Shown here: piece by piece, positions 23,143 to 31,115 of the stretch
Layout of the letters: each line of letters begins with the position of its first letter
Numbering within the stretch: position 1 is the stretch's first letter
DNA from: Vitrella brassicaformis CCMP3155
Lineage: Eukaryota > Protista > Chromerida
Direction of reading: 5' to 3'
Length of the DNA: 64,000 nt
NCBI GenBank assembly: GCA_001179505.1
Contig: CDMY01000878.1
Location: forward strand, 62,001 to 126,000
Made by a program: the position numbers and the translations under genes
Notes under the pieces: model-generated
Databases searched by the model: none
The model's input: only the letters and a program-made list of their open reading frames with translations
Told to the model about the DNA's origin: nothing

Positions 23143-25509
23143 TCAGACCATCTGCATGTTGTCGAGGATGCGGTCATCGTCGTTCAGCCCGTGCCTGAGC
23201 GACAGCTCGATGCCCCAACGCTGCGCCTCTGACCGCACGGCGCGGTAGAGCACCTCGCAGACGCTCATGCACCGATTTGCCACACCTCCTATGGCGAACG
23301 GCCGCAGCGGTGGCTGGCCCGGCCCGCCCACCACATGGACGTTGCCGTCCTGGATGATGCTGCGGCTGGCGGCCGTCACGTACCGCTGAAGCGCCCGGTC
23401 GATGCGTGTGCCGAACGGCTTCTCACCGATGGGGAGGGAGGGGGAGGCGGTAAGCAGGGAGGCGATCGTCGTCTGGATCTCGGGAGGAAGAGTGGCATGT
23501 GTCGTCTCGCTGATGGGGATGGGTTGGGCTAGCGAGGCCGCGATGGAGCGGCTGGGCTGCAGGGCGGTGTTGATGGCCCGGATGGTCTCATGAGGGACGG
23601 TGGTGTTGACGAACGTCTCGTATGCCCTCACGATCCTCCTCAGGGGCCAGTTTGCCTCGTCCTCCTCGTCGCTGTACTCGTCGACGTAGCCCCTCATCCT
23701 CTGGCAGCGGTCGCAGTCCTCATAGTCGTAGTCGATGTCCATGAGCATGTCCCTCATCATATCGCAGCCGCGGCAGGGCTCTCTCTCACGCTGCTCAACC
23801 CCGGCCTCTCTGATGGCCCTCTGTGGGGTCACGCCGGCAGCCGTCAGCGAGGCACCGTGCGTGAGCAAGTCCAGCAGACCCGGCTCGACAGGCACACCCG
23901 AAGGCTCGTACTCGTCGTCGTCAGTCATCTCACGCGCCAGGTCCCACAGCAGAGTGCTCCCGCTGCTGTCGGGCGTGTTGATGTGCTCTGCTGCACCGAG
24001 GTAGTAGAAGCGTTGGATGGTCTCTTTGCGGCCCGTGCGGCTGAGGGGCCATGAGAAATACGCGTCCCACAGCGGCCGCCTGCCGTCACTGTCAGTTGCG
24101 TTGACGATGTCGCGCCCGCACATCTCGACAAAGTAGTCGATGAGCTGCTCCTGGCACTTGGGGTCGGGGAGGGTGTGCTTGCAGTAGCAGTGGATGGGCT
24201 GCTTGCCGTTGCCGTGCACTTCTGTGAGGACAGAGCGGTCGCGCTTGGCGATCTTCTTGACAATGCGCAGGTGGGCAGCCGGCGACAGGCCCTTCGCTTC
24301 GCCCTCTACGGCCATCTCCGACAGCAGCTGCATGCCGTTGACGGCGGCCTTGTACTGCGGCTCGAGCAGGATCTCCAGCAACGCCCACCGCCCCTCTCTG
24401 ATTGCGACCTCGATGGTCGTGCGGCCCTCGGCATGTGCGCTCGCGTCGATAGGCGCCCCGGCGTCGAGGAGTGCTCGGAGCACCTTGCCAGCGGCTGGGC
24501 CATGGTGGTATGCAACCACCAGCCCCACCAGGCTGAGCCTGCGTCCATTCCCGTCTTCGACGCCGTCCTTGATGTTGGCCCCCTGTTCGATGAGGCCGCC
24601 CACCGCGACTTCGTTTACGGTGCCGCACGCAACGTTGGTGGCCAGTCGCTTGGTCAGATGGCAGGCACCAGCCTCGAACTGCAGCGTGACGGCCTTGCTC
24701 GCGGACGTGTGGATGGTGGCCGTATTGGGGAGCGATGCAGGGAGGGCGTCAGGGTCTGGCAGGAGTGTGAAGGGGGACGGGCGCTGGGTGCTACTGAAGA
24801 GGGCTGACGCGGTGAAGGCATGCTCAAACTCCTGCACATCGCACAAGCAGAGGATTTCACGCGACTCCAGCCTTTTTTCGCGTTGTGCACCTGCTCGGAG
24901 GGCGTCACGGAGGCCCAGTTGCGCTTGAAGTCTTCAAACGTGTCCATGACGATGAGTAGAATGGCTGAGCGGCGGGTGGGTACACTGCGCTTCATTATCT
25001 GGGGCGTGCGGCCAGCGGAGCGTCCGTCCTCGCCCTCCTCCTTCATGTGCTCGTGGCGCTTGAGCACGCTGTTGGTGTCAGTGACGGCGTACTGGTACTG
25101 GTGCTCGCCCGGCGGGATGGCCACACACACTCGCCAGGCGTCGCATGCGGGTGAAGGAGGGGCCATGCGATGAGTTTTGCCACCGATGAGCAACGAAACT
25201 GATAGATCACAAGCCGCACCCATTGCTCTGCATAGATCTGACTCCATTCGTTATCCTGCCCGCCTCTGTACCTGATTCGTCATGCTTGACGTCCTCAGAT
25301 GCCGTCAGTTTGAAGACTACCGGGATAGTGTGCTTCTGGGTACCAGATGTCCGGCCCTCGTAGATGTCAGGCGGCGCCGATCTGCCACTGCCACGATGCT
25401 GCGCACTTGGCTGCACACGAGTGAGATTTGCACACAGCAAGCATAGGTGACATCATTGTTGCTTTTGTTGGTGCATCACCTTTCGAAAAGTCTGTTTCGT
25501 GCGGGCCAT
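23143..25509 (-). CDS. About 720-aa protein: histone-H3-tail-like N-terminus, CBM48/AMPK-beta-like beta-sandwich, ankyrin repeats and a lineage-typical C-terminal domain
   Basis: Exons 25509-25480, 25410-25272, 25198-24891 and 24831-23143 are joined by GT-AG introns of 69, 73 and 59 nt, all in phase. Translation starts MARTKQTFRKPSAQHRGSGRSAP, then IPVVFKL...IPPGEHQYQYAV. Ankyrin-like motifs follow: GRTTIEVAIREG, NGKQPIHCYC, DGRRPLWDA, SGSTLLWDLA. Confidence 0.8.
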
Positions 25510-25691
25510 TCTAGTCGCCCTTCTAGCTATAGCTCGCAGCCGGTGCCGCTCCGTGTTCCCTCTTCTTCCTAGCGCAGCAGGAGCCCCGTGCTGTCCCCCA
25601 GAAGGCTCTTTATCAATTGCAGCAGGGGGGAGCGGGGCTGCTTGAAATCGAAGCTGACGCTCTCTCTCATCAACGTAATCTGCAGGAAGCA
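25510..25691. promoter_or_regulatory. Putative bidirectional promoter (ankyrin/PPR), 182 bp, AGCTCGC at 25531-25537
   Basis: Short gap between divergent ATGs; motif seen directly; function inferred. Confidence 0.5.
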
Positions 25692-28600
25692 ATGAACTCG
25701 ACGACGGCGGCGGGCCATGCTTTCAGTCGTTTGCCAATGTGTCCACTATCGTCGTCTTCGTCTTCCCATTCCGCTTTTCTGCCCCTCGCCGACGCCGCCA
25801 CTTGCACTGCGGATGGTGGTGGGCCCATGGACGCCATTGGAGGCTGGGCCGTCGTTTATCGCCTCCTCTCGGAGGTGTTCATCTTTGTACTGATACTGCA
25901 GCTATTCGGACTCGCGGTATCCACACACACACACACACAGGGTGAGACATGCTCTGACTTTCCCCCTAAGGCTTCCCATTTTTGCAGCTTGTCCTTTATC
26001 GCAATGCTCGCCATTTCTGTGACAAGGGGCGGAAGACATCGCAACAACAGCAGCAGACGCAAGAGGAGGAGCAGACTGTGCCGCCGCCTGCCCAACCCCA
26101 GCGACAACAGCAACAGCAACAGCAAGACCAGACCCCCGCTGCCAACGCCACCCCAGCTGCCCACCATTCTTGCCCTGCCGCACCAGCCAAACCAGTGTCG
26201 TCCCACCCCGCCCCTCCTTCGCCGTGCCCGAGGGTGCCCGACCCCCAGACACGATCCACCACGGTCACTTCAGAGGGCAAGCAAGACGGCGACGCCTCTC
26301 CCAAGTCAGCCGGTGGGTCACCGCTGCTGAGGAGCCCACAGGGCAGTAGTGAGTGCCTACACGCCGCACCTCAGCCTCAGGTGATTCGGCCGGCATTCCC
26401 CGTCAAAGCGCCTGTCCCTGTGGCTTCGGCTATGGTTGCACCGAGCCAACCGCAGCCACCACAGCCGATGAGAGGGCGAGATGGTGGAGAGGATTTGTTT
26501 CTGAAGGCGGCCAGGAGATTGGCCGATGAGGAGAGATATCATGAACTCTGGGAGCTGTGGAAGGGCCTCCCGACGCTCAGCCAGATCCCCAGCAAGAAGA
26601 ACGCTCTCGATTGGTTCGTGCTGCTGGCCGAGGCGACTTGTGCTGGTGGTGGGGTCACCCCTGATGGCCGCATGAGCGGCCGCATGACGCCGTCGCGCCC
26701 ACCGGAGGCCATCGACATGGGCGAGCTGGAGACAGCTTTTGTGCCTGCGGATCGTCCGAGGGCTGACCTGATTCGGCTGCTCAAGGCAGCTGAGACGCTG
26801 CTGGCCCATGAGAACAACGTGGACGCGCGTCAGCAACTCTTCGCCTCCATGGTGGCGAGCCTCGCGCGGCTGGGCCAGCACAGCCGTGTGGCCGACCTGT
26901 TGCTGATGGCCACCCACCAGTCGATCCTCATCCCCTCATCCCTCAGCCCCCGCACCCTCCTGGCCCTCATGACCGCCCTCGGCGAGACAACCCGCATCGA
27001 CGCGGCCGGGACGGTGTTTGCCATCGCCAGCAGGAGGCCGGACAACACCCTCACAGAGGCCTTCGTGCTGTCGTATGTCAAGTGCTGCCTTGCCAGTGGG
27101 GCGGCTCAGCGTGCTGAGGAGGCGGTGAGGGTGGCGGGTCAGCGGGGGTGCGCCACCAGCCGGGTGTTCCAGACCTTGCTGCGGCACTATGGCAAGAAGG
27201 AGAACTGGGGTACTGTGCTGAAGCTAATACGGCAGACGCCACCGTCTGCTTGTTTTGGTGTGGGCGTCAAGAGAAATTTGCTGCTCAAGATCGCAAGCGA
27301 GAGGGGCGACGTGGAAGAGGCGGAAAAGGTTCTCAGGGACACGGAGAGCCGAAGTGAGTCACTGGGAGTGACACCACAGAGATAGAGACACGATGGCGTT
27401 TGATGTGCCTGTATGTATTTGTTGCACACAGAGGCCGAGTACGATGAGTACACGTACTTCCATCTGCTGAAGCTCTATGCATCGACGCACCACCATGCCA
27501 GGATGGAGGCGCTGCAGCGAGAGATGGCCGCCAAACACATCCGGCCATCCACTGCCTGCTTTGTGGTCCTAATCGACTATTACTTCCGGTGGGGCGACGT
27601 CGCGTCGGTCTTGCGGATATTTCGGGAGGCCAAGTCGGCGGGCCGCACCAATCTGACCCTGTACGCGCAGATGGTTCGTCACTTCACGTATCTGGGTCAG
27701 CTGGACCAGGCCATGAGCCTGTTCTCCGAGATGAACAGCCACGGATACGCCGACCTGGGGGTCTACACGCTTCTCGTCTGCAAGCTGCACGAGGCCAACC
27801 GACGACAGGACGCCCTCAGGGTGGGTGAGACCACTGACACAAACACACACACACACACCACACACACACACACCTCTGACAAATACGGCAGTGGATGTCT
27901 CCTTTCGCTCCTTTCGTCTTGTGTGTGCGTGTGTGCGTGTGTGTGTGTAGGTGCTGAAAGACCAGCGGCCTCGCGTGACGGGGCCCCGTGGCCCTCTGAA
28001 CAGAGATAGCGGTCAGCAGCAGCAGGGGATAGGGGGTGGAGGGGGGGCATCCTCATCGTCGTCGGAGGGAGGGTGGATATCGAGCTACATGGCGTTGATG
28101 CGGTGTGCCGGGCAGCTTGGGGCGCTGGATGTGGCCTTCGATCTGTTCGACAGCTACTGCAGGAGTGGGGAGAGCCCCGACTCGCTCATGTACAATTGTC
28201 TCTTGGACGCCTGCGTGACGTGCAAGGCCCCCCAGAGGGCCATCGACTTCTTCAACAAGATGAAAACCTCACAGGTTCGTCCACTCCACACACGCCTCGT
28301 GGTTAGTCGCTGTGCTTTTGGTTTCATCTGTGTCTACGACGCTCAGGTGCGTCCCGACTGTGTGACGTACAACACGATGATCCGGGCCTACAATGTTGCA
28401 AAGGTATAGGACGTCCGACCGCATCGGTCTGTAATGTCAGCTGGGCCACTTGAACCGACCTTCTTGTAGCACCTGGATGGTGCCTTTGGCCTGTTGGAGG
28501 AGATGATGGCCAAGGGGACGCATCCCAACGTCGTCACCTTCAACTCACTCATTCACGCGTGTGTCATGAACAGAAACAACGACAGTAGGCACATCCACAC

Positions 28601-29074
28601 ACACACCACCGACAGTCAAACCTCCATATCTGTATGTGTCTGCCTGTGCAGAGGCGTGGCGTGTGTTGCCTTTGATGAAGACCTCTGGCGTCGAGCCCGA
28701 CAGCGTGACCTACTCGACCCTCATCATCGGCATCAAAAACGACCGCACGGGCGCCACACTCGCAAGGGGCTTCTCATGCCTCGACCAGCTGCTCAGCACA
28801 GACATGCAGCCTGACGAGGCAAGGCACACACACAACATAGAGAGACACACACAAAAGGATGCCCAGATGTCCCTCCGTCTGTGTGCTTTGTGTGTACAGG
28901 TGTTGTTCAATTCGTTGATGGATGCGTGTGTGCATTTCGGCGAAATCCGCAAGGCCGAGACGGTCTTTCAGCGCATGATGGCCAGCGGCATCTCGCCATC
29001 CACAGTCGCATATGGCATACTGATGAAGGTGACCTGACCCTCCCAACCGCAAGAAAAATTGCGACAATGCATTG

Positions 29075-29110
<36 letters not shown>

Positions 29111-31115
29111 TGTGTATGTTTGTGTATGTGTGTGTGTGTGTGTTTGATAGGGTTATGGTGTGGTTCGTGATTTGCCCCGTGCGCTTCAGTGCAAGGGCGA
29201 CATGGAGGAGGCCGGCCTGCAGTCTAACGCCGTTGTTTACGGATGCCTCATCGACGTCGCACTCAAAGGCAAGCAGTCACATGACAAGCCAATGTGTTCT
29301 CTTCATATGGGTGTGGTTGATTCACTGGCTCAGTGGGTGAGGACGCTGTGGCCGAGGGGCTGTTCGACGAGATGCGCTCCCGGGGCATCCAAGGGACGGT
29401 GGTCACCTACTCGCTCCTCATCAAACTCTTCGGCAGACAGAGGAACATCGACAAGGCCTTCGCGGTCCGTTCATGACACACAGACACACACACAGACACA
29501 CATAGACAGGGAGAGATTGCATGTGTGTGTCGTGTGCAGGTGATAGAGGAGATGAAATCTCAGGGTCTGTCGCCCTCGTCGGTGACCTACAACTCACTCA
29601 TGGACACACTCGCAAGATGCAGAGACATGAGGGTATGTCAGTCACAACTGCCAACCAAGACGCACACACGCAGGCCTTCACCAAGTGCCCTTCTGCTTTG
29701 CTCTCTGTTCTCAGAGCGCCCCTCGTCTGCTGGCTCTGATGCGGCAGGACAAGGTCTCGCCGGACCTCATCACATACAGCACCATATGCAAGGCAAGTCA
29801 CACACAGATGCGCACATGCACCACCGGGGAATCGTGTGTGCATTCCTTGCTTCGATCAGGGTTACTGCCACAACGGTGAACTGGAGCGTGCGCTGGACGC
29901 CTTCGCCGCCATGAAGCACGAGGGCTTCAAGGCAGACGAGATCATCTACAACTCACTCATCGACGGATGTGCCAGAAGGGGAGACCTCAACACAGCCAAG
30001 AAGGTACGGTCTCTCCCCGGCCGCCCGTCCGTCAGTCAGCCCTGCCTGCTATCTTGCCAATGTGTGTGTGTGTAATGCATGTCTCACTCAGTTGGTGCAG
30101 GAGATGCGTGGGGGCGGCATCCAGCCCTCCAACGTGACCTACTCCATCCTCATCAAGACTTGCGGCGTGGCAAAGGAAATCGACCACGCATTCGACGTAC
30201 CGATGGATGGATGGATGGATGTGTGCATGGTCATTCAGGCAATGGTCGGGTGTGTGTGTGGTGGTCAGGTGTTGGAGATGATGGAGGAGGACTGCGTGAG
30301 GCCTGGCAAAGTCGTGTATACGTGCCTCATACAGGTGACAGGGAGGGGGAGAGGGAGAGTAAGCGACACACATGCACACACGAATGGCTCGTGTCGGGTG
30401 TGTGTAGGCGTGTGTGTGCAACGGTCGTCTGGATCGCGCGGTGTCGGTGTTCCACGACATGCACGCCCGCCAGATATTCCCCGACGGCGTCACATACGGC
30501 GCACTCATCGCCGGCTGCATTCAGGGAAACGACCTCCGACAAGGCAAACAACCCATCTCATCACACACAGGACGACGGCTGCTGACATGGTTCCTTTCCC
30601 CTTGTTCTTCGTCGTGTGTTTCAGCTGTGGCTCTTACCGAGCACGCCTCCGCCCAGGGCACTCAGCTGACGACCCGCACCTACCAGCAGCTCCTCAGATC
30701 ACTCAAACGGGTGCGCACGTCTCATTCACACACCCCACCCACGTGAATGCAATGCGTGTCTTTGCGTGTCTTTCCATCGATCAACCAGGCCAACATGCTG
30801 CCCGAGTACCAGCGTGTTGACGAGCAGATGGCCCGGGAGGGTGTGGACAACCGGCGGCTGCCGGACAGACCCACACAGCGCTTCGGCGACAAGAGCAGAC
30901 ACCATAATCATGGGTTTGACAATGACTGTGAGGAGGATGCCGATGAGTCATACCAACAGCCATACCCGTCTCAACCAGCACCGAACCAGGAGCCCCACCA
31001 GCAGTATCAACAGCACCATCAGCATCCATCGAGTGCTGCTGCTGGAGGTGGTGGTGGTGGTGGCGGGCCACACGTGCGGCGAAGGGCCGGGGGGCCGTAC
31101 TGGAGACACAGATAG
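25692..31115 (+). CDS. P-class pentatricopeptide repeat (PPR) protein with N-terminal transmembrane helix
   Basis: 17 introns spliced by hand give about 19 clear 35-aa motifs (e.g. PDEVLFNSLMDACVHFG, PDLITYSTICKGYCHNG, ADEIIYNSLIDGCARRG) plus about 4 degenerate ones. The N-terminal hydrophobic segment VYRLLSEVFIFVLILQLFGLALVLY spans intron 25917-25987. The start could instead be ATG 25737 or 25827. Confidence 0.92.
29076..29145. repeat. Intronic compound (CT)n(GT)n microsatellite, one example of many in the window
   Basis: ctctctctctctctctctgtgtgtgtgtgtgtgtgtgtatgtttgtgtatgtgtgtgtgtgtgtgt inside a PPR intron. Similar tracts occur at 33365-33394, 37115-37137 and 47586-47635. Confidence 0.9.

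What the first reader, a model, noticed from the sequence alone, without database searches (positions are those of the whole stretch)
25411..25509. Hidden first exon encodes a histone H3 N-terminal tail mimic (MARTKQTFRK) on a non-histone ankyrin protein
Seen: ATG 25509 in good context (agaATGG) is the only ATG in its open frame. The 30-nt exon encodes MARTKQTFRK and ends at AAG|gtgatg. A 69-nt intron ends gtgtgcag| and joins in phase 0 to PSAQHRGSGRSAP, then the CBM-like and ankyrin exons. Known: H3 starts (M)ARTKQTARKSTGGKAP, so this is 9/10 identical, sits at the true N-terminus, and keeps R2, T3, K4, T6, R8 and K9. PHD-type readers and H3K4 enzymes need that free N-terminal Ala. Histone mimicry is known for influenza NS1 and G9a/GLP, and G9a/GLP ankyrins read methyl-H3K9. 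Inference: this could be a decoy or substrate for chromatin writers/readers, perhaps with its own ankyrins reading the modified tail. Alternatively, an H3 first exon was captured by exon shuffling. The ORF track hides this because the motif sits at the end of a TTG-started ORF.
Basis: partly seen in the sequence, partly recalled or inferred. Interest (0 to 1): 0.85.

Follow-up and report, generated by a model that had tools for sequence, protein, structure and literature searches.

The report
Histone H3 tail on algal ankyrin
One gene of the alga Vitrella brassicaformis splices a 30-base first exon that copies the tip of histone H3 onto an ankyrin-repeat protein whose close relatives lack it, so the exon was likely captured recently and would let the protein attract histone-reading proteins, though no function or selection is shown.

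Summary
The minus-strand exon 25509-25480 encodes MARTKQTFRK (8 of 9 H3 residues after Met; chance about 1e-9 per N-terminus). One contig in one run is spliced across the 69-nt intron and both later introns. The four-exon model equals a public annotation, Vitrella brassicaformis CEM36108.1 (unnamed, 721 aa), so the exon is unnoticed rather than hidden.

The tip is private to this paralog. None of six full-length family members carries it, H3 likeness stops exactly at K9 and the exon end, and no H3 core lies in the window. Real H3 genes elsewhere have an intron at this codon, so capture of an H3 first exon is the likeliest origin; Vitrella's own H3 introns could not be checked. Constraint is undecidable (one change in nine).

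It meets the sequence rule for H3 N-terminal mimicry proteins, so H3K4-type readers would likely bind. Reading by its own ankyrins in the G9a manner is unlikely, because S10-G13 is missing. My scans found H3 tips on other unrelated eukaryotic ORFs, and this scan has noted the same kind on other DNA before. Verdict: real, young, function untested.

The parts
25480..25509 (-). Exon 1, 30 nt: start codon plus H3-like tip MARTKQTFRK (H3 1-9 with A7F)
   Evidence: spliced contig in run X7 covers 25480-25512
25411..25479 (-). Intron 1, 69 nt, GT..AG, phase 0, directly after the K9 codon
   Evidence: joint 25410/25480 in 1 contig of X7
25339..25410 (-). 5' part of exon 2 (about residues 11-34): linker private to this paralog, not H3-like, predicted disordered
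   Evidence: paralog contig diverges at 25338 (table 7); shuffle test; pLDDT 24-32
25050..25326 (-). Beta-sandwich, CBM48/AMPK-CBM-like (about residues 39-106), split by intron 2 (25271-25199); shared with paralogs; a lead only
   Evidence: Pfam AMPK1_CBM E 0.093, below cut-off; Atlas features 0.90; intron 2 spliced in X6 and X7
24832..24890 (-). Intron 3, 59 nt
   Evidence: spliced in X6 and X7
23779..24666 (-). Degenerate ankyrin repeats (about residues 215-510), in exon 4
   Evidence: Pfam Ank_2 E 3.8e-4, below cut-off; Foldseek DARPin/ankyrin E 1.6e-7; pLDDT mostly 70-90
23143..23670 (-). C-terminal helical domain shared by many Vitrella-type ankyrin proteins; no family or fold assigned; stop codon at 23145-23143
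   Evidence: alignment of 26 rows; model pLDDT 84; no clear fold match
25510..25630 (.). About 120 bp between this start codon and the divergent PPR transcript; probable shared promoter and short 5' UTR; no GT donor on the - strand from 25657 to 25510
25631..30072 (+). Divergent neighbour, a PPR gene (transcript from 25631 or earlier, likely ATG 25692, first intron 25917-25987; 3' end not mapped). It limits room for an upstream exon
   Evidence: X2 contig 14, X6 contig 21

Best explanation
This is a spliced chimeric gene in which the first exon of a histone H3 gene was likely captured by one recent paralog of a Vitrella CBM-like/ankyrin family, and after predicted removal of Met the exposed A-R-T-K-Q-T tip would act as bait or tether for H3K4-type readers and writers. 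Shown: the exon, its splicing, its restriction to this paralog among the annotated family members, and the end of H3 likeness at the exon boundary. Inferred: (1) origin by copying from an H3 gene with an intron after K9; (2) translation from 25509 and Met removal, which Ala at position 2 permits; (3) binding of PHD/Tudor-type proteins or K4 methyltransferases to the free tip on a floppy 35-residue stalk, bringing them next to the ankyrin scaffold; (4) any benefit to the cell. The K4 side (R2, T3, K4, Q5, T6) is intact. The K9 side is degraded (A7F; S10-G13 absent), so K9-centred readers would bind poorly.
For: Spliced joint in X7. Model equals CEM36108.1. Chance 1.4e-9. Tip absent from P0002, P0004, P0005, P0009, P0011, P0012, and no N-terminal match above 4 of 9 in 156 other stored proteins. 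The tree nests P0001 beside P0002/4/5 at 97/99, with P0009 outside at 100/100, so one gain explains it. H3 likeness ends at K9. In the metagenome scan 16 of 96 loci continue after an intron at this same codon with the H3 sequence (one of them cut short), and 3 more (L002, L076, L096) do so but go on into non-histone sequence. The iM-Z-R-X-K rule is met, and all seven human peptides tested bound H3K4me3 effectors in vitro (PMC8166343, abstract, sections 12 and 17). Residues 1-38 are unstructured in the model.
Against: No sign of constraint: with 0.13-0.26 changes per site, 1.1-2.1 changes in 9 are expected, and one or fewer has probability 0.70-0.35. It is a single gene in a single strain; no ortholog with the tip was found. 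The joint rests on one contig. That contig ends at 25512, on an AG that could be an acceptor, so an upstream exon is not formally excluded. No donor was seen: nothing else was laid over 25264-26050 in the unspliced run X5 at 80%, though a 30-nt match would probably be missed. Vitrella's H3 intron positions were not testable. No nuclear localisation evidence; the only other basic cluster is KRDR at 355. Chen et al. found no direct in vivo K4me3 on their mimics (PMC8166343, section 17). Phage-like ORFs also begin MARTKQT, so the first seven residues alone can arise without histone ancestry.
Confidence: 0.42

Rival explanations
1. Neutral passenger: the H3 first exon was captured, but it only supplies a start codon and splice donor to a 5'-truncated duplicate; the peptide has no selected role and is decaying (A7F).
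For: Private to one paralog on a branch of 0.26 changes per site. One change in nine fits drift. Paralogs do without it. H3 genes are abundant donors of 5' ends (general knowledge).
Against: No longer flanking copy (promoter, UTR, intron) was laid at 80% in run X5, as if only the coding 30 nt stayed recognisable; weak. The K4-side residues are all intact. Similar tips recur on unrelated proteins.
Confidence: 0.35
2. Convergence: the tip evolved stepwise from non-coding DNA beside the PPR promoter under selection for a basic, H3-like N-terminus (mimic or nuclear import signal), without copying.
For: Best DNA identity to any fetched H3 start is 25 of 30 (other organisms only). Leader GC3 is 19 of 33 against 541 of 663 in the gene body (p 0.002). 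Phage-like ORFs reach MARTKQT too.
Against: Eight matching residues on one short branch are hard to build stepwise. The match ends exactly at an exon boundary used by real H3 genes. The GC3 dip also occurs at the start of the neighbouring PPR gene (18 of 31), so it is not diagnostic.
Confidence: 0.1
3. The tip is not at the true N-terminus or is rarely made: an upstream exon splices to the AG at 25512-25511, or most transcripts start further downstream.
For: The X7 contig stops on that AG, and the X6 contig stops at 25412. A shorter gene call on a spliced public contig starts at the Met in exon 3 (P0008).
Against: No GT donor on the - strand from 25657 to 25510. The divergent PPR transcript begins by 25631. 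The X7 contig has no loose letters beyond 25512 (591 = 558 + 33). There is no in-frame ATG upstream.
Confidence: 0.08
4. Self-reading switch: the protein's own ankyrins bind its methylated K9 as G9a/GLP ankyrins bind H3K9me1/2.
For: The ankyrin fold is real; EHMT1 appears among the matches (rank 28, 15% identity).
Against: The GLP ankyrin needs K9-G13 with G12-G13 (PMC2887955, passages); this tip continues P-S-A-Q. EHMT1 ranks below DARPins and ankyrin-B and is not among the 60 best of 163 sequence matches shown. Paralogs have the same ankyrins and no tip.
Confidence: 0.05

Closest known systems
H3 N-terminal mimicry proteins (H3TMs: VRK1, BCL11B, TSHZ1, MEF2C, PCLAF, MAPK8, HIVEP1; Chen et al. 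2021, PMC8166343; abstract, sections 12 and 17 read)
   Same: Non-histone protein with N-terminal Met-small residue-Arg-x-Lys on a disordered end; predicted Met removal; candidate ligand of PHD/Tudor domains and substrate of K4 methyltransferases.
   Different: H3TMs are defined by a loose four-residue rule and include conserved chromatin or transcription proteins. This tip copies 8 of 9 residues, fills its own exon, and sits on one young paralog of a lineage-specific ankyrin family with no known chromatin role. No binding was tested here.
G9a/GLP (EHMT2/EHMT1) automethylated histone mimic and methyl-K9-reading ankyrins (PMC2887955; passages read)
   Same: H3-like motif and ankyrin repeats in one polypeptide.
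   Different: No SET domain found. The mimic covers the K4 side and lacks the S10-G13 stretch that the GLP ankyrin needs. No special likeness to EHMT1.
Influenza A H3N2 NS1 histone mimic
   Same: Short H3-tail copy on a non-histone protein that could divert H3 readers.
   Different: NS1's motif is a short C-terminal viral sequence. This one is a cellular, N-terminal, exon-encoded near copy.
Other H3-tip carriers found here: L002/L076 (upstream of DUF4062/STAND-like ORFs), L004 and L033 (DUF7025/AAA), L038 (linker-histone domain)
   Same: H3 tip on ORFs without an H3 core; L002/L076 also have an intron after K9.
   Different: Unrelated partner domains and hosts; A7 is kept and some extend to about residue 18. 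Their gene models are inferred from DNA only, and I found no description in print.

Membership tests
H3TM (Chen et al. 2021) | iM-Z-R-X-K at the protein N-terminus (Z = A, G, S, C, T, P, V) | tested here: met
   M-A-R-T-K at 25509; rule from PMC8166343 section 12
H3TM (Chen et al. 2021) | Motif is the true start of the expressed product | tested here: inconclusive
   Spliced contig covers the ATG plus 3 nt; little room upstream; no 5'-end or protein data
H3TM (Chen et al. 2021) | Not a histone H3 or variant | tested here: met
   No histone family in Pfam; no H3 core in the window, best tblastn E 0.11
H3TM (Chen et al. 2021) | Disordered N-terminus | tested here: met
   Residues 1-38 without secondary structure, pLDDT 24-32; shallow alignment, so moderate weight
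H3TM (Chen et al. 2021) | Binds PHD/Tudor readers or is methylated at K4 | not testable with these tools
   Needs peptide binding and mass spectrometry
G9a/GLP-type methyl-K9 reader with own mimic | K9 followed by S-T-G-G (G12-G13 needed for ankyrin binding) | tested here: not met
   P-S-A-Q follows K9; requirement from PMC2887955
G9a/GLP-type methyl-K9 reader with own mimic | Aromatic cage in the ankyrin repeats | tested here: inconclusive
   No residue-level alignment to EHMT1 obtained; EHMT1 rank 28, 15% identity
G9a/GLP-type methyl-K9 reader with own mimic | SET domain | tested here: not met
   No SET family in Pfam at E up to 1
Histone H3 variant (including CenH3) | Histone fold after the tail | tested here: not met
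Ankyrin repeat proteins | Tandem ankyrin fold | tested here: met
   Foldseek E 1.6e-7, 271 matches at E up to 0.001; Pfam below cut-off
CBM48/AMPK glycogen-binding module | Beta-sandwich profile match and sugar-binding residues | tested here: inconclusive
   Pfam E 0.093; Atlas 0.90 with 142 of 256 features shared; low pLDDT; binding residues not checked
Ankyrin/F-box (PRANC-like) SCF adaptors | C-terminal F-box | tested here: inconclusive
   An LP-x-E-I-like motif (recalled resemblance) is present at about residue 607, but no F-box family in 22 proteins and no F-box among fold matches

The most novel reading that the evidence does not exclude
Eukaryotes repeatedly graft the first exon of histone H3 onto fast-evolving, defence-like scaffolds (ankyrin here; STAND/DUF4062 and DUF7025-AAA proteins in L002, L004, L033) as integrated histone decoys that catch H3-tail readers or H3-targeting parasite and virus proteins. 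This Vitrella gene is a birth of such a decoy caught on a single branch.
Probability: 0.2. Interest if true: 0.8.

Novelty: new variant of a known kind. Interest (0 to 1): 0.47.

Why it matters
If the tip is functional, a ten-codon exon is a portable module that plugs any protein into the histone code. That would extend H3 N-terminal mimicry from loose motifs in human chromatin proteins to exon capture in the closest free-living relatives of apicomplexan parasites. The gene has near-identical paralogs without the tip, which makes a clean natural control. In practice, such tips can cross-react with anti-H3K4 antibodies and confuse peptide assignment. If neutral, it is still a clear example of a chimeric gene born from a histone exon.

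Tried and rejected
No genome assembly is held for this window, so the proteome-wide search for other H3 tips and Vitrella's H3 intron positions stayed open.

The look-up of sequencing runs listed no RNA holder on record; this is not used as evidence. X1 and X2 have no contig over exon 1 and X6 stops at 25412; lack of cover is not evidence.

The complex of residues 1-30 with 195-510 gave no verdict (score 0.00, alignment not used); not evidence either way.

A donor H3 variant sharing the 34-residue leader was not found among proteins of 30-395 aa (the search did not even return H3, so it is insensitive to the tip alone) or of 396-1262 aa (4 hits, all known paralogs plus itself). The 30-residue tip found nothing in the PDB or by Atlas features. 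The family alignment found no locus in metagenome contigs (0 of 195 stretches confirmed).

Extension of H3 likeness past K9 was rejected. An H3 remnant elsewhere in the window was rejected. Terminal or target-site repeats around the gene: only short chance-level pairs. GC3 as a sign of foreign origin was rejected by the neighbour control. The F-box idea for the C-terminal domain found no support (best Z 6.6, rmsd 4.6, 110 aligned, generic helical bundles); absence of a match does not show a new fold.

Literature: searches showed, by listing, no paper on this gene, on Vitrella H3 mimics or on H3-exon capture. One search was swamped by an author name and 88 by chemistry abbreviations. Supplements were not read, and the Vitrella genome paper was not consulted.

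Full report
1. Is it there? Yes. On the minus strand, ATG 25509 opens a 30-nt exon reading MARTKQTFRK, followed by a 69-nt GT..AG intron in phase 0. Four exons (25509-25480, 25410-25272, 25198-24891, 24831-23143) translate exactly to P0001. P0001 is the public protein CEM36108.1 of Vitrella brassicaformis CCMP3155, 721 aa, unnamed. The annotation therefore already contains the exon; what I did not find in print is its H3 likeness. Against H3 ORFs fetched here (34 of 36 with Ala7) the tip matches 8 of 9 residues after Met. The chance of 8 or more matches is 1.4e-9 per N-terminus, about 3e-5 for a recalled 23,000 genes.

2. Is it spliced? I laid contigs of 7 runs (X1 twice). One contig of X7 (591 nt, depth 17.4) removes all three introns, including 25411-25479, with 33 letters on the exon-1 side. 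X6 removes introns 2 and 3 and stops at 25412. X3, X4 and X5 run through unspliced. X7 has no recorded type, so RNA is inferred from the splicing. The X7 contig ends at 25512 without loose letters, on an AG that could be an acceptor. An upstream exon is unlikely: the divergent PPR transcript starts by 25631 (X2; 25638 in X6), there is no GT on the minus strand from 25657 to 25510, and no in-frame ATG lies upstream. The start site itself is not determined.

3. What is the protein? Residues 1-38 are unstructured in the model. About 39-106 is a probable CBM48/AMPK-type beta-sandwich (Pfam E 0.093; Atlas 0.90; a lead only). About 215-510 are degenerate ankyrin repeats (Foldseek E 1.6e-7). The C-terminal 175 residues fold confidently with a 26-row alignment (pLDDT 84) but match nothing clearly. 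All closest relatives that carry a name are Vitrella proteins.

4. Is the tip conserved? No. Six full-length family members with the N-terminal beta domain (P0002, P0004, P0005, P0009, P0011, P0012) begin differently, and none of the 156 other stored proteins matches more than 4 of 9 at its N-terminus (most of these are distant ankyrin hits or fragments). The paralog starts rest on annotation. For P0004 a contig of X6 leaves this locus at 25338 and continues with the annotated P0004 leader (table 7, translated by hand); what lies further upstream in it I could not see. A tree of 11 rows places P0001 beside P0002/4/5 (97/99) with P0009 outside (100/100) and a terminal branch of 0.26 (midpoint root, P0002 cut before its duplicated end). 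One gain on that branch is the simplest reading. One change in nine residues is what drift would also give (probability 0.35-0.70), so selection is neither shown nor excluded.

5. Where did it come from? H3 likeness ends at K9, which is the exon end. Residues 11-34 are no closer to H3 than shuffles (p 0.83-0.91), and the window holds no H3 core. A metagenome scan for the H3 tip followed by GT returned 96 loci (the pattern selects for GT, so this is no census). By tblastn, 11 are contiguous H3, 22 have an H3 core further down, 34 have 400 nt or more and no core, and 29 are too short to tell. In 19 of the 96 an intron after K9 is followed by the H3 continuation. Sixteen of these look like H3 genes (mostly one closely related, fungal-looking group; one cut short), and three (L002, L076, L096) turn into non-histone sequence after about residue 18. 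So an intron at this codon exists in real H3 genes, and capture of such an exon has a parallel. Whether Vitrella H3 has this intron could not be tested. No longer donor copy was laid at 80% in X5, and no short protein with the same leader was found (insensitive to the tip alone).

6. How common are such tips? The 34 core-less loci fall into 9 groups by the residues that follow. One multi-copy family makes up 23 of them, and in 22 of those the motif has an upstream in-frame Met. Others lie on or just upstream of DUF7025/AAA ORFs (L004, L033), DUF4062/STAND-like ORFs (L002, L076) and a linker-histone domain (L038). In viral contigs (120 rows, scan cut at its limit) many hits are true H3, one with Phe7 (L203), but phage-like ORFs also start MARTKQT, so seven residues alone prove little. 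Earlier notes of this scan report the same kind on other DNA, including an amoeba ankyrin family, fungi, marine protists and giant viruses. These are unchecked AI notes and are not counted as support. None concerns this sequence.

7. How it most likely works. Ala at position 2 permits Met removal, and the tip meets the iM-Z-R-X-K rule whose human members bound H3K4me3 effectors in vitro; no direct in vivo K4me3 was found for them (PMC8166343; abstract, sections 12 and 17). The K4 side is intact, so PHD/Tudor readers and K4 writers would be the likely partners, tethered by a floppy stalk to the ankyrin scaffold. The K9 side is degraded. GLP-type ankyrin binding needs K9-G13 with the diglycine (PMC2887955; passages), which is absent, so self-reading is unlikely. 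All binding steps are inferred. I give 0.42 to a captured exon working as a mimic, 0.35 to a neutral captured exon, 0.10 to convergence, 0.08 to a different true start and 0.05 to self-reading.

8. Novelty and verdict. It works like an H3TM and meets the sequence rule; the biochemical features were not testable. It is not an H3 variant and not a G9a/GLP-type protein. Ten literature searches (listings only, apart from the three papers opened) showed no description of this gene or of H3-exon capture. PMC4751559 (passages) uses Vitrella H3 only as a tree reference. Supplements and subscription papers were not seen. Class: new variant of a known kind. Interest 0.47: real and spliced, with natural paralog controls, but a single young gene with no evidence of selection or function.

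Noticed in passing
L002 and L076 (match at 2501-2532), L096: H3 tip, an intron after K9, then H3 residues to about 18, followed on the same strand by DUF4062-like (E 7e-5) and nSTAND1/NACHT-like (E 8e-8) ORFs: a possible H3-tipped STAND protein in an intron-rich eukaryote. The join into one gene is inferred.
   Followed up: partly
L004:1717-2532 (-) and L033 (match at the start of the oriented stretch): Two fungal-type DUF7025/AAA ATPase genes carry MARTKQTARK at or near the start (L004 has an upstream in-frame Met).
   Followed up: partly
L020, L055, L061 and 20 more loci: A multi-copy, often broken family with an H3 tip inside a long ORF, followed by an R/S/P-rich stretch and a C2H2-like finger; looks like a mobile or repeated element; no Pfam hit for L020.
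   Followed up: partly
L038:2501-3319 (+): ORF with an H3-like tip to about residue 19 and a linker-histone H1 domain (E 1e-11), no H3 core.
   Followed up: partly
L203, L041, L051, L054: Divergent H3 proteins: L203 has Phe7 as in this tip; L041, L051 and L054 keep residues 1-9, replace the rest of the tail and carry long extensions around a histone fold.
   Followed up: no
window 23146-23670 (-): A conserved C-terminal helical domain shared by at least 25 related ankyrin proteins, confidently modelled (pLDDT 84) but without Pfam family or clear fold match.
   Followed up: partly
window 25631-30072 (+): Divergent multi-exon PPR gene whose N-terminus has a hydrophobic, membrane-like segment; about 120 bp separate its transcript from the ATG at 25509.
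   Followed up: partly
P0003 and P0008: These public proteins are identical to P0001 up to about residue 430 and then follow paralog P0004: probably chimeric transcript assemblies, or gene conversion.
   Followed up: no
P0002: The annotated paralog carries an exact tandem duplication of its C-terminal domain, possibly an assembly artefact.
   Followed up: no
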